64,000 nucleotides of DNA from contig JBJHBT010000017.1 in the NCBI GenBank assembly GCA_050485645.1, positions 2,752-66,751 on the forward strand, written 5' to 3'. A program made the position numbers and the translations under genes. The notes under the pieces were generated by a model that had not been told where the DNA came from, ran no database searches, and saw nothing but the letters and a program-made list of their open reading frames with translations. The stretch comes from Gammaproteobacteria bacterium (lineage in GTDB: Bacteria; Pseudomonadota; Gammaproteobacteria; Steroidobacterales; Rariloculaceae). This document shows positions 31,577 to 44,409 of the stretch, one piece after another; within the stretch, counting starts at the first letter, position 1, and the number at the start of each line of letters is the position of its first letter.

Positions 31577-33640
31577 ATGAACAATCGGCTCCGCCACGAA
31601 ACCAGCCCCTATCTGCTTCAGCATGCCGACAACCCCGTGCACTGGCAGCCGTGGGACGAACAGGCGCTGCGGCTCGCGCGCGAGTCGGACAGGCCGATCC
31701 TGCTGTCCATCGGCTACTCGGCCTGCCACTGGTGTCACGTGATGGCACACGAATCGTTCGAGGACGCCGACACCGCGGCGCTGATGAACGAACGGTTCGT
31801 GAACATCAAGGTCGACCGCGAGGAACGACCCGATCTGGACAGGATCTATCAGCTGGCCCATCAGCTGTTCGTCGGCCGCGGCGGCGGCTGGCCACTGACC
31901 GCATTCCTGACCCCGGACAGCCACCTGCCGATCGCGGTGGGCACCTATTTCCCTCTTCAGCCACGTTACGGCATGCCGGCTTTCAGCGAAGTGCTGCGCC
32001 GTGTTGCCGACTACTACGCCGGGCATCGCAAAGAAATCACCACGCAGGGCCATGCGCTGGTCGATGCGCTGCGGCGCATGGACGAACGCGCAACGGCACG
32101 GGATGGCCAGCCGCTGGACGCGGCACCGCTTCACGCCGCGCGTGAATCGCTGCGTGCCGGCTTCGACGTGCGTCATGGCGGCTTTGGCGGCGCGCCGAAG
32201 TTTCCGCGCGCCGGGAGCCTCGAGCTGGCATTGGAGCTGTGGCACGACGCAACAGATGCGGACACCGGCACGCGGCACGAAGCTGATCTGATGTCGATGG
32301 TGACATTCAGCCTCAGCACAATGGCCGCGCGCGGTCTCTACGACCATCTGGCTGGCGGATTTTTCCGCTACGCGGTTGACGAAGCCTGGGCGATACCGCA
32401 TTTCGAGAAAATGCTGTACGACAATGCCTCACTGCTGGCGTTGTATGCGGATGCATGGGCCGCCACCGGCCAGGCGGCGTTCGCGACAGCGGCGACTGAG
32501 ACCGCGCGGTGGCTGAACCTTGAGATGGCGCATGCGCAAGGCGGATGGTACGCGGCGCTGGACGCCGATTCGGAAGGCGAGGAAGGCCGCTACTATCTGT
32601 GGACACCCGAGCAGTTCGAATCGCTGCTGCCGGCACCACAGAGCGAGGTGGCGAAAACGGTCTACGGCCTGTATCGCGAACCCAATTTCGAAGGCAGCGA
32701 ATGGCATCTGCATCATGCGGAGTCGGTGGCCACGGTCGCGGCCGCCAACGACACGGCCACGGACGAGGTGCAGGCCTTGCTCGACAGCGCGCGACAAACG
32801 CTGCTGGACGCGCGCCGCGGCAGGCCCGCCCCGGAGCGCGACGACAAGGTGCTCACCGCGTGGAATGCGCTGACGGCACGTGCGATGGCACGCGCGGCGC
32901 GCCGTCTGCGGCGCCCGGATCTGGCGCAACCCGCACTCGCCGCCATCGACTTCATTCGCGGGCAGCTGTGGGATGGCCGGCGCCTGAAAGCCGTCTACAA
33001 AGACGGAAGATCGCGCTTCAACGCCTACCTCGACGACCACGCCTTCATGATGGACGCATTGCTCGAAACCCTGCAGTGCCGGTGGCGAACCGCGGATCTG
33101 GAATTCGCGATCGCCCTTGCGGACACGTTGCTGGAACGGTTCCAGGACGCCCGCGGGGGATTCTGTTTCGTCGCTGACGACCACGAAGCGCTGATCCATC
33201 GGCCACGATCATTCGCCGACGAGGCCATTCCTTCCGGCAATGGCATCGCGCTGTCGAGCCTGCTGGTGCTCGGCCATCTGCTGGGTGAAACCCGCTACGT
33301 GGATGCGGCTGAACGCGGCCTGCTCGCGGCCCGGCAGGTGGTGCTCGGCCATCCGGATTCGTACGCGGCGACCCTGCACGCACTGGCGCTCTACCTGCAC
33401 CCGCCGGAACTGATCATCATTCGCGGCACGCGGGAGGAAACGCACCATGTGTGCGAGGAGATCGGCGCCAACTACCATCCGCGCCGCTACGTGTTCAGCA
33501 TTCCGCCGGATGTCGGCACACTGCCGGGCCTGCTCGCAACCCGCTTACCGGCATCGTCCGGCGCAGTCGCCTACCGCTGCGCGGGCACCCGGTGCGACCT
33601 GCCGGAGACGGACATCAACCGCCTGATCGATCAGCTGTAA
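31577..33640 (+). CDS. Thioredoxin-domain/alpha-alpha-barrel protein (YyaL/SSP411/DUF255 family)
   Basis: [59 protein letters not shown]. Confidence 0.93.
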
Positions 33641-36455
33641 TCGTCACCGGCGACGCATGCAGCGGATTGCGTTGCCAGTAGCCGTCTTCGCGCCGGAGCT
33701 CGTACGCGGGCCAGTACAGCCCGTCGAGCGTCAGCGTGATGACTTCCGGGACGTCGTTCCAGCTCACGGTATGCAGACGCACCGAGTCGGTGCTGCCCAG
33801 ACGCCGTATTTCACGAACGAAGCTGTCCATGTCGAGGGTCGGATTGCCGTTGACCGCCACGATGCGCCGGCCGGCCACCAGACCGAAACGACTGGCCGGG
33901 GATCCGAAATTGTAGAACGAGACATACACACCGATCGGTTCCACGCTGCGCTGTGCCGACAGTTCACGGTGCGGTGACTGGATCAGGGCACCGGCCCACA
34001 TCAGCACATGGTCGATATCGACGCCGCTGAGTTCGACGGTTTCCAGCACGCGGGTGATCTCGCGGCCATCCCGAAAGACGGTGACCTCCACCTGTTCCGC
34101 CTGTGACGCCCGCTCCACTTCACGGAAGGTGTTCGCCGGCTCGCCGTTGATGGCAAGCAGAATGTCGCCGGCACGGAAGAATCCGGCGGCCGGCGTACCG
34201 GCAACGAAACTGGACACGGCCAGAACCTGGCGCCGCTGACGGTTATGCAACTCATAGGTGGCTGCCCAGGCCTCGGGCAGATCAAGCTTGCTGGCGGTTG
34301 CCAATGGCATCCGCCGCCATTCGACTTCGAGCGACCGGATGGGCGTGTCGCTGCGCAGATGCTCGAGCATATCCACGACCAATTCCGCGGGCACGCCCAG
34401 ATTGACCTGATGGAGATCGCGTCCGGTCTGATACGCGAAGCTGGACCACAGTGCCAGTACGCCGCCGTCGCGATCGGTGATCACACCGTCGAAGCTGCTG
34501 GGGCCATTCACCAGGGTGTAGGCCTCCAGGTTCGAGTCGCGGAAGCGGAAGGTGCGTGACGGCGGGAAATTGGCGTCGGTTATCGAGCCGATCTCACTGG
34601 ACTGGGAACGCAGCCCGTGGTCCGCCCCCAGGCCCACCACCAGCACGGAACGGCCCGGTTCAGACTCCTCAACACGAAATTCCGCACTGCGAACCGGCGT
34701 ATCGCCGATCAGCGCGGTGTCGTACGACACCACCGCAAGGTTGTGCAGGGGGTGTACATAAACGACGTTGCCGGGTATTTCCAGCGAGCCCGCGAACGTG
34801 AGCCGCACATCGCCCAGTGCCACCGGCACGGTGTTGCGATCGACCACCACCCAGCCGCGTTCGGCATCGGCTACCACGCCGGTACCGTAGTAGTAACGAT
34901 CCGATACACCCGAAACCGTGTAAGGCATCTCGAAGTTCACCAGCACCAGTGAATGCTGGATGATGTCCAGGTGGGGGTCCGTATTGTCCGGAAACGAGGT
35001 CGTGCGGGCTTCGCGTGCCGGCGCGGGCGCCCCTGCCCCAAGCTCACGACACGGCCATACGCCCGCCGCATCGTCACGATGACAGCGCACGGCCGGGTAC
35101 CAGTGGCGGCTGTTCGTCAGAATCCGCTGATGCTCGCTACGCGGATCGTCGAAAGGCACGAAGCGCACACTGACCTGCTGACCGATCGCCAGGCTTTCCA
35201 GCACCGCTTCGAATTCGTCCAGGTCGGCGACGGGTTGACCATCGAGTTCGGTGATCAGGCTGGCGCGCGGGATGCCGGCGGTGCCGAACACGTATCCGGG
35301 GCTGGCCACATAGACCCCGCTCACCGGGCGGAACAGGTGTCGCGCCTGCTGATACGACAGTTCGTGAAATACACCGTCACCGAATTCCACGTACTCGTCG
35401 GGCGTCACGGCGTGAAGGTCGTCCACGAGCAGCCGGTACGTGGCCGCCTCGCCGCCTCGCTCAACAACCAGCTCAACGGACTCGCCAACGCTGCCGTCCA
35501 GGATCGATGCCAGTGGCACGAATTCGGTCACCAGTTCGCCGTTCAGTGAAATGAGAATGTCACCCGGCTCGAGCAGCGACGACGCCGACGAACCGGGCAG
35601 CACCTGCTCAACCACCAGCATGCCGGTCTGTTCCGGGTGCGCACGACGCGCCGCCGCTTCGGCGGATTCGGTCAGACCCAGCCGCCGCAGTTCAGCGTAA
35701 GGCTTGCGTACGAATTCGGTACGAAGCGTCCCGCGCGTTACCGGCCTGCCCTGTCGAATGAGCTGGAACGCTTCATTGACGCGATCCAGCGGCAGAAAGA
35801 AACTCGACGCGGCCTGGGAATTGCCGCCGGCATTGAGCGCGACCGCGCGGCCCTGTATGTCGATGACCGGCGAGCCGGATGAACCACCGGATGTCCCGGA
35901 CGCCGCCTGGAAATAGAACGTGTTGAAGTCGTTGTAGTTGCCGCGCCCATAGTTCGGTGCCTGTCGGTCCAGACGCGCAATCGTGCCGGCCAGGATCGAC
36001 AGCTGTTCCCCGGCATCGTTGCCCACGACGCGTATGTCGGTGCCCACCTGTGCCGCCGCCGGCGCCAGCGGGATCTCGGCCGGCTCCATGAAGACAAGAT
36101 CGTCGGGGTTGTAACTGAAGAATCCGAAGTCGTGAACCGGATCGCGATAGACGGGGATCAGATCCACCTCTTCCTGATTCAGAAAGATGGCCTGTGCCCG
36201 CACCGGTCCGGGAGTGACCACATGACGGTTGGTGAGGATCAGGCCGCGCTCGGCGTCAACGACAAACCCGGTTGCCTGGGTGGAGCGGTTGCGCTCCGTG
36301 TCGAATGCACGCGTACTGTCCACGCGTATCGACACCACTCCCGTCGCGATGCGTTCCAGCGTCTGGTTCCATGTCTGTGTCTGTGCCTGTGCCGATGCAT
36401 GCGCCGCAGTCAGAGCGACCAGCGCGATGACCAGCAAGTTTTTGATTGATTTCAT
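33615..36455 (-). CDS. Exported tandem HtrA-type serine protease with multiple PDZ domains (Nma111/DEG7-like)
   Basis: Signal peptide [22 protein letters not shown]; triad in TNRHVV / DPVHDFG / GGSSGSP; second degenerate trypsin domain (VVVDRNTVP); PDZ-like segments. Confidence 0.88.
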
Positions 36456-36557
36456 GTAACTGGCTTCTTTGATGTCGATCGCTGGTAGGTTCAGACAATC
36501 CTCGCAGCATTTTATTCCCAAGGAAAGCGAAGCCGGCTGCGCGGCGGACCCCGCCCG

Positions 36558-37787
36558 CTACAATGGCGGGCGGAGTAGCGCACCGCGGCGACTGCCGGTC
36601 CCCAGTGCCTGACGCATCAGCCAGCGACGTCCCGGACCGAACCACTGCACGGCGGAGAGTCCGAAACGGCGCGCCGGCGACACCCAGCCCGGCAGGTTGC
36701 CGCTGCGAGCGATCACATCCAGTGCCAGCAGCATCGCCAGGTTCTCGCCCTTGCTGGCGCGTTCATAACGGCGCAGTACCCGCAGATCGCCCGGCGACTG
36801 CCCTTCGTCCAGCGCCTGTTCCAGCGTACGGGCAAGCCGGGTTGCGTCCAGCAGGCCCAGATTCATTCCCTGACCGGCCAGCGGATGCACGGTGTGTGCC
36901 GCATCGCCGGCCAGCACCAGCCGCGGCGCGCAGTAGCGCAGGGCGTGCAGCGCGCGCAGAGGAAACGCAGCGCGCGGGGACGGTGCCGACAGCCGTCCCA
37001 GTACGCCGCCACTGGCCTGCTGCAATGCAACGAGAAAACTCGCCTCATCCGCGGCGAGCAGCGATTCCGCCTGCGCCACGGGCATGGACCACACGATCGA
37101 CACGCGACCGTCGGCCAGTGGCAGCAACGCCAGCGGGCCACCGGCAAGGAAACGCTGTCGGGCACACTGGCCGTGATCCAGTTCGCAGTCGATGTGCGCG
37201 ACCACGGCCTGCTGGCCATAGGCTTCGGTAACCACAGGCAGCTGCGCAAGTTCACGCAGCCGTGAGGCGCTGCCGTCCGCGGCCACGATCAGGTCGGCAC
37301 GGATGCGCTCACCGTCATCCAGTCTCACCATGACATCATCGGCGCCGGTGTCCAGCGACTTCACCCTGCGGCCGAAGGTCAGTGACGTTTCAGTACGCGT
37401 TCGCAGCACGTCCAGCAGTGCGACTCTCAGCAGGCTGTCTTCGACGATATGTCCGAGGTCCGGCTCGCCGATTTCGGCTGCATCGAAACGCAGTACGCCG
37501 ACGTCATCGTTCGGGCTCCCTTCCCACACCAGCATGCTGCGGTACGGGCTGACGCGCGCGGCAGTCACCGCATCCCATGCACCCACCGAGTCGAACAGCT
37601 GCTGCGACAGACGAGACAGTGCGTAGACACGCAGATCGGTGCGCTGCGCGGACCACTCGGGTGGATCGCGACCGTCGAGCACATGCACCTCGAGCTGGCG
37701 TTGATGAGCACCGCAGGCCAGTCGAGCCGCAAGCGCAAGACCGACCGGTCCACCGCCGACGATCAATACGCGGCATGAAGCTGTCAT
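36558..37787 (-). CDS. ubiI: UbiH/UbiI/VisC-family FAD monooxygenase (probably UbiI)
   Basis: IVGGGPVG, LRVYALS, AADG..S, AGDAAHTVHPLAGQGMNLG; follows ubiH. Confidence 0.75.
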   Translation of the reverse strand: MTASCRVLIVGGGPVGLALAARLACGAHQRQLEVHVLDGRDPPEWSAQRTDLRVYALSRLSQQLFDSVGAWDAVTAARVSPYRSMLVWEGSPNDDVGVLRFDAAEIGEPDLGHIVEDSLLRVALLDVLRTRTETSLTFGRRVKSLDTGADDVMVRLDDGERIRADLIVAADGSASRLRELAQLPVVTEAYGQQAVVAHIDCELDHGQCARQRFLAGGPLALLPLADGRVSIVWSMPVAQAESLLAADEASFLVALQQASGGVLGRLSAPSPRAAFPLRALHALRYCAPRLVLAGDAAHTVHPLAGQGMNLGLLDATRLARTLEQALDEGQSPGDLRVLRRYERASKGENLAMLLALDVIARSGNLPGWVSPARRFGLSAVQWFGPGRRWLMRQALGTGSRRGALLRPPL

Positions 37788-39034
37788 GGCGTGCCGACTG
37801 GCAGGCCACGTGCCAGCGCGGGCTGACGGCCGGCCAGCCCCATCATCTGCTCAGCCAGCACGGCCTTGAGCGGCGGCAGTCGATCGAACGCGGCCAGGCT
37901 CATGCCACGTACCAGACCCGCGCCCGGCACGCCGCAGCCGAACAGCTGCACCAGACCGTGTGTCAGAGTGACGACACGACGACGATCAGCGGCTCGCGCC
38001 TGGCGATAGTCCCGCAACACCGCCGGCGAGCCGACATCGGCATCGTTGTTCGCGCCGCGCTGCACTGCGGCGGCCAGACAGTCAGCCAGCTCCGCCACAT
38101 CCCGCAGCGCCAGATTGAAACCCTGACCGGCGACCGGATGCAGACTGGCGGCCGCATTGCCGATCAGCACCGCACGCTGCCCGTTGATCGACTCGCTGAC
38201 GACACGTCGCAGGGGGTGCACGATCCGCGTTCCGCACTGCCGGATGCTGCCCAGCCGGTAGCCGAAAGCGCGCTGCAGGCGCGCACGGAATGCGGCATCG
38301 GGCAGACTCATCAGCTCCGCGGCATCATCGGTGCGAACGGTCCAGACCACCGCCATGCGTCCCTGACCAAGCGGCAGCAACGCCAGCGGACCATGGGCGG
38401 TGAAGCGCTCGAAAGCGATTCCCCGATGCGGTTTCCCGGTAAGGCAGTTCACCACCACCGCAGACTGCGCATAGTCATCCTCGCGCGCAGCAATGCCCAG
38501 CGCACCGCGTAACGGCGAACCGGCGCCATCGGCGGCCACCAGCAATCGCGCATGCAGCGACTGCCTGCCAGTGGCCGACTCGACATCGACAACCACCGCA
38601 TCGTCCCGGTGCCGCACCGACACCACGCTGGCCGGCGCCAACGTTCGCAGCCGCGGCGCTTCGGTCAGTGCATCCCAGATCACCTTGCCCATGACACGGT
38701 TGGCGATCGTACAACCCAGCGCGGCGACGCCGTAGTCGCGCGCATGCAGTCGGGCCGTGCCAAACCGCCCGCGTTCACCGATATGGATGGTGGTGATGGG
38801 TTCGGCGTGGCCGGCCAGCGCCGCCCACAACCCCAGCCCGTCCAGAATCCGGCGTGATCCTTCGGCCAGTGCCGTACAGCGATCGTCGAAACTGGGTTGC
38901 GCCAGTTCACGCGGATCGCGCGCCTCGACCAGTGCGCAGGTCAGCGGCAGCGAAGCCAGTGCGTGCGCCAGCACGGAACCGACCAGTCCTCCGCCGACAA
39001 TCAGGACATCGACCGATGTCGCGTCATGGCTCAA
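37784..39034 (-). CDS. ubiH: 2-octaprenyl-6-methoxyphenol hydroxylase
   Basis: TTG start overlapping the pepP stop; IVGGGLVG, FDDR.TAL, AFERFT, LIGNAA.SLHPVAGQGFNL.LRD. Confidence 0.88.
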   Translation of the reverse strand: MSHDATSVDVLIVGGGLVGSVLAHALASLPLTCALVEARDPRELAQPSFDDRCTALAEGSRRILDGLGLWAALAGHAEPITTIHIGERGRFGTARLHARDYGVAALGCTIANRVMGKVIWDALTEAPRLRTLAPASVVSVRHRDDAVVVDVESATGRQSLHARLLVAADGAGSPLRGALGIAAREDDYAQSAVVVNCLTGKPHRGIAFERFTAHGPLALLPLGQGRMAVVWTVRTDDAAELMSLPDAAFRARLQRAFGYRLGSIRQCGTRIVHPLRRVVSESINGQRAVLIGNAAASLHPVAGQGFNLALRDVAELADCLAAAVQRGANNDADVGSPAVLRDYRQARAADRRRVVTLTHGLVQLFGCGVPGAGLVRGMSLAAFDRLPPLKAVLAEQMMGLAGRQPALARGLPVGTP

Positions 39035-40338
39035 CGCGTGCTCTCCATGAACCGCTCGATCTCCGCGGCGCCGGCCGGCAGCCCTTCGGTGAGGACGCGC
39101 GGCCCGTTGCGCGTCACCACCACGTCGTCTTCTATGCGTATGCCGATGCCGCGCCACGGCCGCGCGGCGCCGGGAGCGTCCGTGTTCACGTAGATGCCGG
39201 GCTCGATCGTCAGCACCATGCCCGGCTCGAGCAGTCGCCACTCGTCACCCACACGATAGTCGCCAACATCGTGCACATCCAGGCCCAGCCAGTGACCTGT
39301 GCGATGCATGAAGAATGACCGGTACGCGCCGTCGCGTATCAGGCTCGGGACGCGACCGCTGAGTATGCCCAGATCACGCAGGCCGCGGGTGATCACCTTT
39401 ACCGCCGCGTCGTGGGGATCGTTCCAGTGATTGCCTGGCTTCACGGCCGCGGTCGCGGCCTGATTGGCTTCATGGCAGATGTCATGCAGCTCGCGCTGCC
39501 GCTCACTGAAGCGCCCGTTGACCGGAAACGTGCGGGTAATGTCGGATGCGTACAGCCCATGCTCGCAACCGGCATCGATCAGCACCAGGTCTCCATCGTT
39601 CAGGACGGCGTTGTTCGCGCGGTAGTGCAGCACGCAGGCATTGGCACCCCCGGCAACGATGGGCGAGTACGAGCATTCCACACCGTTGCGACGGAACTCG
39701 TGCTGAAACTCCGCTTCCAGTTCGTATTCCTTCATGCCCGGACGACATATCCGCATCGCCCGCCTGTGTGCGACAACGGCGATCCGCGCGGCCTTGCGCA
39801 TTTCCGACAGCTCGGCGCGACTCTTGAACAGCCTCATTTCGTGCAGTAGATGGCCGAGCGCAACCAGCTCACCCGGCGCATGGGAACTCTGTCGTCTGGC
39901 GTTCAGCGCCGTGATCCAGCCCAGCATGCGCTGGTCGAATTCCGCCATGACGCCCATTGCGCAATAGACGCGTTCGCGCGGCTCGAGCAGACCGGGGAGT
40001 ATGTCCTCCAGGTCCGATACCGGAAACGCATCGTCGGCACCGTAGCGCTCGATCGCACCAGCGGGTCCGGCACGCGGCCCGTCCCACTGCTCGCGCGCGG
40101 GGTCGCGTTCGCGACAGAACATGATGAATTCGCCCTGCTCACGACCCGGCACGAAGACGGCGACGGCGTCGGGTTCATCGAATCCGGTGAGATACCAGAA
40201 ATCGCTGTCCTGACGATAGGCGTAGGTGCTGTCGCGGTTGCGCGTGCGTTCCGGTGCCGCGGCGACGACGGCGATGCCCTCGTGCCCGATCATCTCCATC
40301 AGGTGGCGGCGTCGCCGCGCGAATTCTTTTGCATCCAT
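39031..40338 (-). CDS. pepP: Xaa-Pro aminopeptidase
   Basis: YRQDSDF.YLTGF.EP, LIDAG.E...YASDITRTFP, HRTGHWLGLDVHD, TIEPG, RIEDD. Confidence 0.96.
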   Translation of the reverse strand: MDAKEFARRRRHLMEMIGHEGIAVVAAAPERTRNRDSTYAYRQDSDFWYLTGFDEPDAVAVFVPGREQGEFIMFCRERDPAREQWDGPRAGPAGAIERYGADDAFPVSDLEDILPGLLEPRERVYCAMGVMAEFDQRMLGWITALNARRQSSHAPGELVALGHLLHEMRLFKSRAELSEMRKAARIAVVAHRRAMRICRPGMKEYELEAEFQHEFRRNGVECSYSPIVAGGANACVLHYRANNAVLNDGDLVLIDAGCEHGLYASDITRTFPVNGRFSERQRELHDICHEANQAATAAVKPGNHWNDPHDAAVKVITRGLRDLGILSGRVPSLIRDGAYRSFFMHRTGHWLGLDVHDVGDYRVGDEWRLLEPGMVLTIEPGIYVNTDAPGAARPWRGIGIRIEDDVVVTRNGPRVLTEGLPAGAAEIERFMESTR

Positions 40339-41709: not shown

Positions 41710-41893
41710 TGTTCCCTGCGGTGTTCGACGCGAATTGGAAGTCTTTCGACCCTAACTCATGATCCAGGGGTTACCGTCTGTCGGTGGCGTTGTGCAGATC
41801 CGGTCTACCCGGGTAGCCTGCAACCATCACGGCCTACCCCACTTGTTGCTCCGGTTCGAGAGCAACGATTCGTGACGGCACAGGCGGGGAGCA
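41710..41893 (+). ncRNA. ssrS: 6S RNA
   Basis: Canonical zapA-6S-ygfA position; 5' TGTTCCCTGC pairs with 3' GCGGGGAGCA; about 184 nt; 5' CCCTG..GTGTTCG resembles known 6S RNAs. Confidence 0.85.
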
Positions 41894-41900
41894 CCTCTCC

Positions 41901-42542
41901 TTGACAACACCAGACCAAACCGCGCAGGCACACCATGCCGCCGAACGTCGCGCGCTGCGCAGACAGGTACGGGCACAGCGCCGCGAATTCCCGCCAGCCG
42001 CGCGCGCGGCCGCCGACTCGCAGATCCTGCGCAGAATACTTGCGCTGCCGGCTTTCCGGGCAGCGCGCAATATCGCCGTCTACTTCGCCTTCGACGGTGA
42101 GCCATCGCTGTCGACGCTGATGCGCATCGCCGAACGTCGCGGCAAACGCCTGTTCGCTCCAGTCATCAATGCCGAACATATGCATTTCGCCCCGGTAGAC
42201 CGAAGCGCACGGATGAACACGAATTTCTTTGGCATCCACGAGCCCCGGAACGCGCGGGCATTCGATGCCCGGCGGCTGGATCTGGTGCTCACCCCACTGG
42301 TTGCGTTCGATGAGTACGGAACGCGCATCGGCGTGGGACGTGGTTACTACGACAGGGCATTCGAGTTTCTTGGCCACCGATCATCATGGCTGCGGCCGCG
42401 ACTGGTGGGAGTGGCCTACAGTTTCCAGTGCATGCAAAACCCGCTGCATCGTTCGCACTGGGACATCCCATTGGTGGGTGCCGTCACCGAAGCGCGGACG
42501 TATCGCTTCGATACCAATGCCGCGCATCAGCCGACTCCTTAG
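41901..42542 (+). CDS. ygfA: 5-formyltetrahydrofolate cyclo-ligase
   Basis: IAVYFAFDGE, GI.EP, LDLVLTPLVAFD..G.RIGVGRGYYDR, WDIPL. Confidence 0.93.
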   Translation: MTTPDQTAQAHHAAERRALRRQVRAQRREFPPAARAAADSQILRRILALPAFRAARNIAVYFAFDGEPSLSTLMRIAERRGKRLFAPVINAEHMHFAPVDRSARMNTNFFGIHEPRNARAFDARRLDLVLTPLVAFDEYGTRIGVGRGYYDRAFEFLGHRSSWLRPRLVGVAYSFQCMQNPLHRSHWDIPLVGAVTEARTYRFDTNAAHQPTP

Positions 42543-42565
42543 ACCAACAGCCCGGGAGGGTTTCG

Positions 42566-43030
42566 ATGAACTACTGGCTGCTCAAGTCCGAACCTTCGAC
42601 CTTCAGCATCGAGGATCTGGCCGCCAGTCCGGGTCGACGGACATGCTGGGATGGCGTGCGCAATTATCAGGCGCGAAACTTCATTCGGGACGAAATGCGG
42701 CGCGGCGACCGCGCTTTTTTTTACCACTCCAGCTGCGCGCAACCGGGCATTGCCGGCATCGTCCGCATCGCGCGCGCCGCCTATCCGGATCACACCCAGT
42801 TCGACCCGGAGAGTCCTTACCATGATCCCGACAGCGAGCCGTCCGACCCGCGTTGGTACATGGTGGACATCACACTCGACAAGGCGTTCAACCGCGTCAT
42901 AACCCTGCCAGAACTGCGTGAACACACGGCTGGCGGGCTTTCCGGCATGACTTTGTTGCGGCGTGGAAACCGGCTTTCGGTGATGCCAGTGAGCGACGAT
43001 CACTGGGAGTTCATCCTGAAACTTTTGTGA
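42566..43030 (+). CDS. EVE domain protein
   Basis: MNYWLLKSEP.TFSI.DL, WDGVRNYQARNF, GD..FFYHS, RLSV.PV...W. SD GGGAGG. Confidence 0.95.
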   Translation: MNYWLLKSEPSTFSIEDLAASPGRRTCWDGVRNYQARNFIRDEMRRGDRAFFYHSSCAQPGIAGIVRIARAAYPDHTQFDPESPYHDPDSEPSDPRWYMVDITLDKAFNRVITLPELREHTAGGLSGMTLLRRGNRLSVMPVSDDHWEFILKLL

Positions 43031-43206
43031 GGCTGCATCGCCCTGCTGCACATCGACACGACGCGTTTTGTTTTCACAACTGAGCATCCAGTCACACTTC
43101 CTGGTTGGACACGCTTGGGCGTTGATGCGCAAAAATCGGTAACACGCTGGAATTTTTGATCCTTTTATATATACTCAACGCCGTTTAACCGACACGGAGA
43201 CTACCC

Positions 43207-43569
43207 ATGGCTCAAGAATCGGCTTCTCAGAAAAAGACATCTGTGAAAAAGACGTCTACCAAGCGTAAGTCTGTACGACGCAAGGTAGCGAAGAAACCTG
43301 CCGCCAAGAAGAAGGCTACCAAGAAGCGAGTAGCGAAGAAGGCGGCGAAGAAAAAGACGACCAAGAAAAAGGCAGCCAAGAAAAAGACCAAGAAAAAAGT
43401 AGCCAAGAAGAAAACCGCCAAGAAGAAAACCAAGAAGAAAGTGGCGAAGAAAAAAGCTGCCAAGAAAAAGACCAAAAAGAAAGTAGCCAAGAAAAAGACA
43501 ACCAAGGCTCGCGGTAAGAAGGCCACCAAGAAGAAGGCAGCCCGCAAGACCGCGCGTAAGAAGCGGTAA
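43207..43569 (+). CDS. Lysine-rich histone-H1-like (Hc2/AlgP-type) basic protein
   Basis: 120 aa with 58 Lys, 8 Arg and 1 acidic residue (counted); SD GGAG; AT-rich promoter region upstream and terminator downstream. Confidence 0.85.
   Translation: MAQESASQKKTSVKKTSTKRKSVRRKVAKKPAAKKKATKKRVAKKAAKKKTTKKKAAKKKTKKKVAKKKTAKKKTKKKVAKKKAAKKKTKKKVAKKKTTKARGKKATKKKAARKTARKKR
43375..43500 (+). repeat. Three imperfect 42-bp repeats encoding AKKKTKKKVAKKK(T/A)
   Basis: Units start at 43375, 43417 and 43459. Confidence 0.9.
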
Positions 43570-43616
43570 GATGTTTGACCGCTCAATGGAGTCGTGATTC
43601 GACTCTATGCCTCAAC

Positions 43617-43647
43617 AAGTGCCCGCTACGTAGCGGGCACTTTTTTT
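43617..43647 (+). terminator. Rho-independent terminator
   Basis: AAGTGCCCGCTA-CG-TAGCGGGCACTT perfect stem running into T7. Confidence 0.9.
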
Positions 43648-43661
43648 CCGCCGGGTGAACC

Positions 43662-44318
43662 ATGAATCAGAACGAACTCAAGCGTAACGCCGCGCTGGCG
43701 GCAATGGAGTATCTGCAGGATGGCATGGCGCTGGGCGTGGGCACCGGCAGCACGGTGGACCATCTGATCGACGCCCTGGCGAACACCCGCCGCAGGCCGG
43801 ACGTCGTCGTTTCAAGCTCCGAACGATCTACGGCCCGGTTGCGCGACGCGGGAATCGAAGTCGTCGAGCTTGCCGAAGTCGGCACCCTGGATCTGTACAT
43901 CGACGGCGCCGATGAAGCCACCAAGCATCGTCACCTGGTGAAAGGCGGTGGCGGTGCGCTGACGCGCGAAAAGGTGCTCGCGGCGGCGTCCAGAAAGTTC
44001 GTATGCATTGCCGATGAGTCGAAACTGGTCGGCATGCTGGGTCGATTTCCGCTGCCCGTGGAAGTCGTGCCGATGGCGCGATCCTACGTTTCGCGCCAGT
44101 TCGTGAAGGCCGGTGGACAACCGATCTGGCGCGATGGATTCGTCACCGACAACGGCAACCAGATTCTGGACGTGCACAATCTGACGATTGCGAATCCGCT
44201 GGAAATGGAGTCGCGCTTCAATCAGATAGCGGGCGTGGTCACGGTGGGACTGTTCGCCCGTCGACCGGCGGATGTGCTGCTGATCGCGGCGGCCGGCGGC
44301 ATCAAGACGATCAGTTAG
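43662..44318 (+). CDS. rpiA: Ribose-5-phosphate isomerase A
   Basis: [35 protein letters not shown]. Confidence 0.97.
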
Positions 44319-44335
44319 GCGGGCACGGCCGGGAG

Positions 44336-44409
44336 TGGCTGGGGGACCAGGATTCGAACCTGGGTTCTCGGAGTCAGAGTCCGATGTCTTGCCTCTAGAC
44401 GATCCCCCA
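44336..44409 (-). tRNA. tRNA-Gln (anticodon CTG), CCA encoded
   Basis: TGGGGGATCGTCTAGAGGCAAGACATCGGACTCTGACTCCGAGAACCCAGGTTCGAATCCTGGTCCCCCAGCCA folds as a cloverleaf. Confidence 0.97.

What the first reader, a model, noticed from the sequence alone, without database searches (positions are those of the whole stretch)
33615..36455. Secreted bacterial protease with the fungal Nma111 / plant DEG7 tandem-HtrA architecture
Seen: 946 aa, about twice a normal DegP/DegQ, with a Sec-type signal peptide. The first trypsin domain has an intact triad ([25 protein letters not shown]); PDZ segments follow, then a second degenerate protease domain (VVVDRNTVP, no His) and more PDZ. The segment [37 protein letters not shown] matches yeast Nma111/Ynm3 as I recall it, not bacterial DegP. 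Established: Nma111 and DEG7 are eukaryotic, lack signal peptides, and are nuclear or plastid-associated. Inference: a periplasmic bacterial member that could inform the origin of the family or reflect inter-domain transfer.
Basis: partly seen in the sequence, partly recalled or inferred. Interest (0 to 1): 0.8.

Follow-up and report, generated by a model that had tools for sequence, protein, structure and literature searches.

The report
Bacterial exported Nma111/DEG7-type tandem HtrA protease
This gammaproteobacterial gene encodes a double-length HtrA protease with a signal peptide that belongs to the Nma111/DEG7 family, described in the papers I found only from fungi and plants; it is one ordinary member of a very large bacterial branch that no paper I found has studied.

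Summary
A 946-aa ORF lies on the minus strand at 33615-36455. It has a Sec-type leader and an active HtrA protease domain (H78/D109/S193). PDZ1 and a PF12812-type PDZ2 follow, then a second protease-like domain without His or Asp (N541/N572), then PDZ3 and PDZ4.

The family assignment is supported. The protein aligns end to end with Swiss-Prot Debaryomyces hansenii Nma111 (36% over 929 aa) and with a plant DEG7 orthologue (49% and 33% in the two halves). E. coli DegP matches at 25% over one half only. In bootstrapped NJ trees the family separates from DegP/DegQ/DegS in 100% of replicates. All N-halves group together (97%), and so do all C-halves (98%). The duplication and fusion therefore happened once, before bacterial and eukaryotic members diverged.

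It is not a one-off or a recent transfer. About 911 clusters (50% identity) belong to the family, and roughly half of the best 150 are bacterial-type. The gene sits in conserved core synteny (pepP-ubiH-visC / DUF255-lgt-thyA) across related Gammaproteobacteria. Databases already auto-label some members 'NMA111'. I found no paper describing tandem bacterial members; a 2011 paper says the family is restricted to fungi and plants. The likely function, inferred and not shown, is a periplasmic ATP-independent quality-control protease and chaperone. The direction of the bacteria/eukaryote relationship is unresolved.

The parts
33615..36455 (-). Whole gene: 946-aa Nma111/DEG7-type tandem HtrA protease, stop codon 33615-33617
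   Evidence: ORF list; Pfam; end-to-end alignment with D. hansenii Nma111; AF2 model with pLDDT 91.1 and pTM 0.87
36390..36455 (-). Sec-type signal peptide, residues 1-22 ([22 protein letters not shown]), predicted signal peptidase I cleavage after ASA
   Evidence: Read from the sequence. Similar hydrophobic leaders occur in 82-95% of bacterial-type representatives. Homology to eukaryotic members starts only at about W29. No SignalP was run.
35736..36368 (-). Active HtrA protease domain, residues ~30-240, catalytic triad H78, D109, S193
   Evidence: Trypsin_2 at E 2.1e-24. The triad columns are conserved in 141-145 of 145 aligned sequences and in both arms.
35421..35723 (-). PDZ1, residues ~245-345
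   Evidence: PDZ_6 at E 1.4e-9 and PDZ at 1.2e-5
35046..35420 (-). PDZ2 of the PF12812 (PDZ_1) type, also annotated in the eukaryotic Nma111/DEG7 sequences retrieved here; residues ~346-470
   Evidence: PF12812 at E 9.4e-21. The same Pfam family is precomputed for the plant and fungal homologues.
34965..35045 (-). Ala/Pro-rich inter-half linker, residues ~471-497
   Evidence: The AF2 secondary structure shows mostly coil over 472-493. Plant DEG7 orthologues carry a much longer insert at this point.
34341..34964 (-). Degenerate (catalytically dead) protease-like domain, residues ~498-705; N541 replaces His and N572 replaces Asp
   Evidence: Internal repeat alignment at E 9e-22. Column counts. 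Trypsin_2 only at E 0.008, below cutoff. A family profile hits the DegP protease domain at E 9.3e-6. DegP aligns to residues 524-869 at E 2e-9.
34020..34340 (-). PDZ3, residues ~706-812
   Evidence: PDZ_6 at E 8e-7 and PDZ_2 at 3.1e-5
33663..34019 (-). PDZ4, residues ~813-931, paralogous to PDZ2
   Evidence: PDZ_6 at E 6.4e-7. It aligns with PDZ2 in the internal repeat.
36558..40338 (-). Upstream same-strand housekeeping genes pepP, ubiH-like and visC-like, about 100 bp from the protease start; syntenic context only, no functional link shown
   Evidence: Pfam. Conserved next to the protease gene in 24-34 of 80 related loci.
31577..33640 (+). Convergent DUF255/thioredoxin-domain gene whose 3' end overlaps the protease stop by 26 bp; the most conserved neighbour
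   Evidence: PF03190 at E 2.1e-68. Present beside the protease gene in 48 of 80 loci.

Best explanation
The gene encodes a genuine bacterial member of the Nma111/DEG7 tandem-HtrA family. Its architecture is signal peptide, active protease, PDZ1, PDZ2, dead protease-like domain, PDZ3, PDZ4.

Shown here:
- Family membership.
- Domain anatomy.
- An intact first catalytic triad and a degenerate second one.
- A single origin of the duplication, shared with eukaryotic members.
- Vertical inheritance of the gene within a gammaproteobacterial lineage.

Inferred, not shown:
- The leader sends the protein through Sec to the periplasm, where signal peptidase I cleaves after Ala22.
- The mature protein of about 101 kDa trimerises through the dead protease domain. 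This is what was found for Arabidopsis DEG7.
- The complex acts as an ATP-independent quality-control protease and chaperone for unfolded envelope proteins. The PDZ domains would bind substrate ends and gate the active site, as in other HtrA proteases.
For: Architecture.

Similarity to named eukaryotic members:
- 36% identity in one HSP over 929 aa to D. hansenii Nma111.
- 49% and 33% in the two halves to a plant DEG7 orthologue.
- E. coli DegP gives only 25% over 371 aa.
- All NCBIfam DegP, DegQ, DegS and HtrA models score far below cutoff, for example 102.7 against 416.2 bits.

Phylogeny:
- The family separates from DegP/Q/S in 100% of NJ bootstraps.
- N-halves form one group at 97% and C-halves at 98%.
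- Asn at the Asp position of the second domain is shared by 51 of 62 bacterial and 48 of 63 eukaryotic sequences.

The gene is truly bacterial:
- GC content matches the flanks.
- The gene sits in the core block UPF0149 (ygfB-like), pepP, ubiH, visC, next to 6S RNA and a 5-formyl-THF cyclo-ligase gene.
- That synteny is conserved in related genomes, including complete chromosomes.

Other support:
- Export signal.
- Trimerisation by the degenerate domain in DEG7: PMC3194040.
- Chaperone and protease activity of yeast Ynm3: cited in PMC4877387.
Against: - There is no experimental data for any bacterial member.
- The signal peptide and its cleavage site come from inspection and a heuristic, not from SignalP.
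- Oligomeric state was not modelled; AF2 was run on a monomer only.
- No solved Nma111 or DEG7 chain is in the PDB copy. Structural matches cover only half the protein and are to DegP, DegQ, Deg2 and Deg9.
- The final location (periplasm, outer surface or medium) is unknown.
- No stress-regulon promoter was found upstream.
Confidence: 0.8

Rival explanations
1. The gene reached this bacterium, or its recent ancestors, by horizontal transfer from a eukaryote, and is an isolated acquisition.
For: Similarity to eukaryotic proteins is high, 49% in the N-half to plants. The backbone of the N-half tree is unresolved.
Against: - The gene is syntenic in 48 of 80 related genomes. Identity to the window protein falls from 94% to 55% in step with the neighbouring housekeeping genes.
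- The bacterial arm is as deep as the eukaryotic one. Mean distance is 1.18 within bacteria, 1.26 within eukaryotes and 1.32 between them.
- The window protein sits in an 82%-supported gammaproteobacterial clade.
- GC content equals that of the flanks.
Confidence: 0.04
2. The tandem architecture arose independently in bacteria by duplication of an ordinary DegP/DegQ gene, so the likeness to Nma111/DEG7 is convergent.
For: Each half on its own resembles DegP.
Against: - All N-halves, bacterial and eukaryotic, form one group (97%). All C-halves form another (98%).
- The same degenerate residues are shared by both arms.
- The PF12812 PDZ type is shared.
- The full-length alignment has only 3% gaps.
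Confidence: 0.02
3. The ORF is eukaryotic contamination or a chimeric assembly in a metagenome-assembled genome.
For: The closest relatives are all MAGs.
Against: - The same gene and neighbours occur in many independent assemblies, including closed chromosomes of 3.8-6.0 Mb.
- A cultured bacterium carries it: Thalassotalea agariperforans WP_448245592.1.
- The protein has a bacterial signal peptide, the gene has no introns, and its GC content is that of the host.
Confidence: 0.01
4. The protein is mainly a secreted or surface-exposed degradative or nutritional protease, or a virulence-type HtrA, and not a periplasmic quality-control enzyme.
For: Some homologues carry lipoprotein-type leaders with a Cys, for example the Thalassotalea protein P0264 and P0255. 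From my own background knowledge, some HtrAs are released from cells. The carriers are marine, sediment and soil heterotrophs.
Against: The window protein has no lipobox Cys and no recognisable secretion-system signal beyond Sec. The HtrA family is typically periplasmic. No secretion genes lie nearby.
Confidence: 0.12

Closest known systems
Fungal Nma111p/Ynm3 (S. cerevisiae YNL123W; compared here through Debaryomyces hansenii Nma111, Swiss-Prot Q6BKM0 = P0413)
   Same: The order of six domains is the same. The first triad is intact and the second protease domain is dead. Both have the PF12812 PDZ. Identity is 36% over 929 aa in one alignment. The [29 protein letters not shown] block is shared.
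   Different: The fungal protein has an N-terminal extension of about 55 aa and no signal peptide, and is nuclear (PMC3194040). The window protein has a 22-aa Sec leader directly before the conserved W29. The pro-apoptotic role and the Bir1p substrate of the yeast protein have no bacterial counterpart.
Plant DEG7 (Arabidopsis At3g03380; compared here through the N-terminal fragment P0122 and the full-length Stephania orthologue P0299)
   Same: Identity is 49% in the N-half and 33% in the C-half, with the same architecture. In DEG7 the degenerate domain mediates trimerisation (PMC3194040), which is the model adopted here.
   Different: DEG7 is about 1100 aa with an insert of about 100 aa between the halves. 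It is reported in the chloroplast stroma and acts on photodamaged PSII proteins. The bacterial protein has a short linker of about 27 aa and is exported.
Bacterial DegP/DegQ (E. coli b0161, b3234)
   Same: Both have a Sec signal peptide, a periplasmic destination and a trypsin-fold protease followed by two PDZ domains. These are the best structural matches to each half.
   Different: DegP and DegQ are half the length. Identity is only 25%. NCBIfam Do-family models are missed by a wide margin. A long, 100%-supported branch separates them from this family. DegP trimerises through its active protease domain.
Single-unit bacterial HtrAs called 'orthologs of Nma111' in the apoptosis-evolution literature (Desulfatibacillum Dalk_4440, Rickettsia MC5_06825; PMC10565124, PMC5982838)
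   Same: They are bacterial HtrA proteases presented as relatives of Nma111.
   Different: They are proteins of about 58-59 kDa, which I estimated by subtracting about 27 kDa for GFP from the reported fusion masses (84.7 and 86.2 kDa). They are only 23-30% identical to yeast Nma111. They are therefore not the tandem type. The window protein is a full-length tandem homologue.

Membership tests
Nma111/DEG7 tandem HtrA family (plant 'clade III' Deg proteases; the label 'pro-apoptotic serine protease NMA111' in JGI and UniRef names) | Roughly double HtrA length with the order protease, PDZ, PDZ, inactive protease, PDZ, PDZ | tested here: met
   946 aa. Pfam on the whole protein and on six pieces. 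Internal repeat at E 9e-22. The AF2 model has pLDDT 91.
Nma111/DEG7 tandem HtrA family | First protease domain keeps the His-Asp-Ser triad | tested here: met
   H78, D109 and S193. These columns are conserved in 141-145 of 145 aligned sequences and in both arms.
Nma111/DEG7 tandem HtrA family | Second protease domain has lost its catalytic residues | tested here: met
   N541 stands for His and N572 for Asp. Asn at the Asp position occurs in 51 of 62 bacterial and 48 of 63 eukaryotic sequences.
Nma111/DEG7 tandem HtrA family | PF12812 (PDZ_1) type PDZ domain | tested here: met
   E 6.8e-22, 77.7 bits against a cutoff of 28. The same domain is precomputed in the plant and fungal homologues.
Nma111/DEG7 tandem HtrA family | Full-length similarity to named Nma111 and DEG7 proteins that exceeds similarity to DegP/DegQ | tested here: met
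   563 bits to D. hansenii Nma111. 421 + 224 bits to a plant orthologue. 76.6 bits to E. coli DegP.
Nma111/DEG7 tandem HtrA family | Groups with Nma111 and DEG7 to the exclusion of DegP/DegQ/DegS, and shares the same duplication event | tested here: met
   100% NJ bootstrap. N-halves group at 97% and C-halves at 98%. The method was NJ with a Kimura correction only; no ML tree was built.
Nma111/DEG7 tandem HtrA family | Trimerisation through the degenerate protease domain | not testable with these tools
   Shown for Arabidopsis DEG7 by yeast two-hybrid and size-exclusion chromatography (PMC3194040). Only a monomer was modelled here.
Nma111/DEG7 tandem HtrA family | Eukaryotic, intracellular (nuclear or plastid) and without a signal peptide, as the literature describes the family | tested here: not met
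   The host is a gammaproteobacterium and the protein has a Sec-type leader. This describes where the family was first seen and is not a structural criterion, so I treat it as a difference and not as an exclusion.
DegP/DegQ 'Do' family (TIGR02037, NF008189, NF007526) | Score above the curated cutoff of the family models | tested here: not met
   TIGR02037 scores 102.7 bits against 416.2. DegP scores 59.7 against 720. DegQ scores 56 against 756.

The most novel reading that the evidence does not exclude
The tandem Nma111/DEG7 architecture was invented in bacteria as an exported periplasmic protease and passed later to eukaryotes, by endosymbiont or by ancient transfer. There it lost its signal peptide and took on nuclear and plastid roles. 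On this reading the published picture of a fungal and plant innovation is reversed, and the bacterial arm is a large, unstudied class of envelope quality-control machines.
Probability: 0.45. Interest if true: 0.55.

Novelty: new variant of a known kind. Interest (0 to 1): 0.42.

Why it matters
**The published range of the family looks too narrow.** The papers I found describe Nma111/DEG7-type double HtrA proteases as a eukaryotic speciality of fungi, plants and algae. They discuss their origin as a eukaryotic gene duplication and fusion.

**What the data here show:**
- The same six-domain protein, from the same single duplication, is widespread in Proteobacteria. Members labelled Myxococcota also turned up.
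- The bacterial proteins carry an export signal.
- The bacterial arm is as deep as the eukaryotic arm.

**What this opens up:**
- The question of the family's origin becomes testable.
- Genetically tractable and easily expressed bacterial proteins become available for studying how a dead protease domain organises an HtrA oligomer.
- Many Gammaproteobacteria may have an uncharacterised envelope protease.

**Limits.** The window's gene is itself an ordinary member of this large group, and annotation pipelines already name some of these proteins 'NMA111'. The gap is in description and characterisation, not in discovery of an unknown sequence family.

Tried and rejected
1. **PDB sequence search for a solved Nma111 or DEG7.** None is present. 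The 2017 Nma111p cryo-EM paper (Zhang et al., Cell Res) could not be read by the DOI I recalled for it. No direct structural comparison with Nma111p was therefore possible. Foldseek returns only single-unit HtrAs covering half of the model.

2. **Obtaining eukaryotic sequences.** No database of named proteins is directly queryable. I used my recalled N-terminal halves of yeast Nma111 and Arabidopsis DEG7 purely as bait. All later comparisons use the real database sequences that came back. That search returned only proteins under about 800 aa, so the hits were fragments. Full-length named eukaryotic members came from the representative search plus cluster look-ups.

3. **Eukaryote monophyly and root position.**
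   - The N-half NJ backbone is unresolved; an exact eukaryote group appears in 1% of bootstraps.
   - The full-length alignment gives about 92% separation of the two arms, with a few sequences of uncertain class.
   - Outgroup rooting puts the root on a bacterial lineage in 95% of replicates. Paralogue rooting does so in 75% and 84%.
   - In nearly every case that lineage is a single long-branch sequence, P0377 or P0368. I treat this as suggestive only.

4. **Promoter and terminator scan around the gene.** Nothing above chance.

5. **Other HtrA genes in the window.** None.

6. **Cluster look-ups.** Most metagenomic representatives carry no name. My bacterial or eukaryotic class for unnamed representatives rests on tree position, leader type and similarity to named sequences. 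It is uncertain for P0255, P0272, P0282 and P0297.

7. **Third protein search and second structure job.** Not used. They would not have changed the verdict.
Full report
**1. The observation**

One search shows a long ORF on the minus strand, 33615-36521 (968 aa from a TTG). The finding's coordinates, 33615-36455, correspond to the in-frame ATG that yields 946 aa. The finding gave no strand.

That start gives [22 protein letters not shown]|QAQTQTW. It has a basic n-region, a 13-residue hydrophobic core and an Ala-X-Ala site. A purine-rich stretch lies just upstream. Orthologues align from residue 1.

- **Whole-protein Pfam:** Trypsin_2 at 61-207 (E 8.8e-27), four PDZ_6 stretches, PF12812 PDZ_1 at 349-422 (E 6.8e-22) and PDZ_2 at 744-801.
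- **Pfam on six pieces:** protease, PDZ1, PDZ2 (PF12812), a weak Trypsin_2 signal in residues 498-705 (E 0.008), then PDZ3 and PDZ4.
- **Internal repeat:** residues 1-470 and 471-946 align end to end at 26% identity, E 9e-22.
- **Catalytic residues:** the triad is H78, D109, S193. In the second half the equivalent positions are N541 and N572.
- **Second domain:** a profile built from 20 family members hits the DegP protease domain at E 9.3e-6.
- **Structure:** AlphaFold2 with a 102-sequence alignment gives a confident model, mean pLDDT 91.1 and pTM 0.87. Two beta-rich protease-like domains are each followed by two PDZ-like units.

All elements of the observation are confirmed.

**2. The host and the locus**

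GC content is uniform across the region, 0.64-0.66. The neighbours are housekeeping genes.

- Upstream on the same strand are UPF0149 (ygfB-like), pepP and two ubiH/visC-type flavin monooxygenases.
- Downstream and convergent are a DUF255 thioredoxin-domain gene, lgt and thyA.
- 6S RNA and a 5-formyl-THF cyclo-ligase gene lie beside UPF0149. From memory, E. coli has the same ssrS-ygfA / ygfB-pepP-ubiH-visC arrangement.

The closest genome is a Gammaproteobacteria MAG with 94% protein identity. Other relatives are Candidatus Rariloculaceae, Woeseiaceae and Steroidobacteraceae assemblies, some of them closed chromosomes.

In 80 related loci the DUF255, lgt and thyA genes accompany the protease gene in 48, 41 and 37 loci. 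The visC, ubiH and pepP genes do so in 34, 33 and 24. Identity of the protease falls from 94% to 55% in step with that of the neighbours. The gene is therefore a vertically inherited chromosomal gene. It is neither contamination nor a recent import.

**3. Which family**

All NCBIfam DegP, DegQ, DegS and HtrA models score far below cutoff; the Do family scores 102.7 bits against 416.2.

To obtain real eukaryotic sequences I used recalled N-terminal halves of yeast Nma111 and Arabidopsis DEG7 only as bait. The search returned genuine named database proteins. Among them were an Arabidopsis DEG7 fragment, other plants, fungi, oomycetes and algae. It also returned bacterial fragments with scores similar to those of algal and oomycete sequences.

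An exhaustive search of 1.84 billion representatives with the window protein found 911 clusters at E<=1e-30. Most of the best 150 are 900-1100 aa and align with query residues ~20-930 in a single stretch. Cluster look-ups named the following:

| Representative | Organism |
|---|---|
| P0413 | Debaryomyces hansenii Nma111 (Swiss-Prot Q6BKM0) |
| P0308, P0373 | Salinomyces and Martiniozyma Nma111 |
| P0299 | Stephania, a plant DEG7 orthologue |
| P0342 | a pedinophyte green alga |
| P0289 | Albugo (oomycete) |
| P0301, P0305 | two choanoflagellates |
| P0264 cluster | Thalassotalea agariperforans WP_448245592.1 (cultured bacterium) |
| P0259 | a Marinobacter MAG |

Direct BLASTP comparisons of the window protein:

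| Target | Identity and coverage | Score |
|---|---|---|
| D. hansenii Nma111 | 36% over 929 aa, one HSP, 3% gaps | 563 bits |
| Plant DEG7 orthologue | 49% (N-half) and 33% (C-half) | 421 + 224 bits |
| E. coli DegP | 25% over 371 aa | 76.6 bits |

In the same comparison DegP also hits the C-terminal half separately at E 2e-9.

**4. Phylogeny**

All trees here are my own NJ trees with Kimura-corrected distances and 100-200 bootstraps.

- On 441 N-half columns the family is separated from E. coli DegP/DegQ/DegS in 100% of replicates. The window protein falls in a gammaproteobacterial clade supported at 82%.
- When every full-length protein is cut into its two halves, all N-halves form one group (97%) and all C-halves another (98%). 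Bacterial and eukaryotic sequences behave alike in this. The duplication and fusion therefore happened once, before the two arms diverged.
- The Asn at the second-domain Asp position is shared by both arms. The degeneration is therefore ancestral too.
- On 886 full-length columns one split separates about 92% of eukaryote-type from bacterial-type sequences. Mean distances are 1.18 within bacteria, 1.26 within eukaryotes and 1.32 between them. These are two deep arms, not a recent transfer.
- Rooting by outgroup (95% of replicates) and by paralogy (75% and 84%) puts the root on bacterial lineages. In nearly every case that lineage is a single long-branch sequence, so I regard a bacterial origin as suggested and not shown.

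**5. How bacterial and eukaryotic members differ**

Bacterial-type representatives have a median length of 938 aa and about 28 residues before the conserved Trp. Between 82% and 95% of them have a strongly hydrophobic leader.

Eukaryotic ones have a median length of 998 aa and a median N-terminal extension of 65 residues, and such leaders are rare. Some bacterial homologues have lipoprotein-type leaders. Plant proteins carry an insert of about 100 aa between the halves.

**6. Mechanism**

Shown here:
- An intact catalytic triad in domain 1.
- A dead domain 2.
- Four PDZ domains.
- An export signal.

Inferred from the family:
- Sec export and cleavage after A22.
- Trimerisation through the dead protease domain, as shown for DEG7 by two-hybrid and SEC (PMC3194040).
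- ATP-independent protease and chaperone action on unfolded envelope proteins, as for DegP/DegQ and for yeast Ynm3 (cited in PMC4877387).

No experiment on any bacterial member was found.

**7. What is already known**

- Schuhmann et al. [quoted passage not shown] They propose a duplication and fusion of a DegP-like gene.
- The 2012 plant Deg review treats the type as clade III.
- Klim et al. 2018 and Kaushal et al. 2023 note bacterial relatives of Nma111. The proteins they use are about 58-59 kDa (my estimate from the GFP-fusion masses) and 23-30% identical, so they are single-unit HtrAs.
- Searches for tandem bacterial members in the literature found nothing.
- Databases already hold thousands of these proteins. 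JGI labels some 'pro-apoptotic serine protease NMA111', and NCBI calls them 'trypsin-like peptidase domain-containing protein'.

**8. Verdict**

The protein is a bacterial, exported variant of a known family and one ordinary member of a very large, uncharacterised bacterial arm.

It does not indicate a recent inter-domain transfer. It does show that the published taxonomic limits of the family are out of date, and it makes the family's origin and assembly principle testable in bacteria. Interest is moderate.

Noticed in passing
window 41710-41894 (+): A 6S RNA (SsrS) gene (Rfam RF00013, 65.1 bits) lies directly upstream of a 5-formyltetrahydrofolate cyclo-ligase gene (41901-42542) and is divergent from the UPF0149-pepP-ubiH-visC block. 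From memory, E. coli has the same ssrS-ygfA / ygfB-pepP-ubiH-visC layout. This supports a core gammaproteobacterial chromosome.
   Followed up: partly
window 33615-33640: The convergent DUF255/thioredoxin-domain gene (ending at 33640, + strand) and the protease gene (stop at 33615-33617, - strand) overlap by 26 bp at their 3' ends. No terminator-like structure was found between them.
   Followed up: partly
window 42001-44409: GC content dips locally to 0.577. The stretch holds an EVE-domain gene (42386-43030), rpiA (43662-44318) and a tRNA-Gln(CTG) gene (44336-44409, minus strand).
   Followed up: partly
window 37784-39241 and 39031-40338 (- strand): The longest ubiH-like ORF (485 aa, GTG start) overlaps the end of pepP by about 210 bp. 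Its Pfam match begins only at residue 77, so the true start is probably further downstream.
   Followed up: no
L083 3539-5074 and 5136-6425: In one metagenomic contig the family gene is split into two adjacent ORFs. One is a 511-aa N-half with a leader (P0384) and the other a 429-aa PDZ-containing C-half, 61 bp apart. This could be an assembly or frameshift artefact, or a naturally split two-gene form.
   Followed up: partly
P0264 (Thalassotalea cluster), P0255: Some bacterial homologues have lipoprotein-like leaders with a Cys after the hydrophobic core (…LMLSGCAST…, …MASVAACGH…). This suggests membrane-anchored variants. The window protein has none.
   Followed up: no
P0301, P0305 (and unnamed P0295): Choanoflagellates (Salpingoeca punica, Diaphanoeca grandis) encode full-length family members with long N-terminal extensions. 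The eukaryotic range therefore reaches beyond the 'fungi and plants' stated in 2011, to close relatives of animals.
   Followed up: partly
L011, L014, L029: MAGs labelled 'Rhodospirillaceae bacterium' carry the gene at 65-68% identity. L014 has the full gammaproteobacterial neighbour set and L011 the downstream part; the short L029 locus showed no neighbours. The taxonomic labels of these MAGs may be wrong.
   Followed up: no
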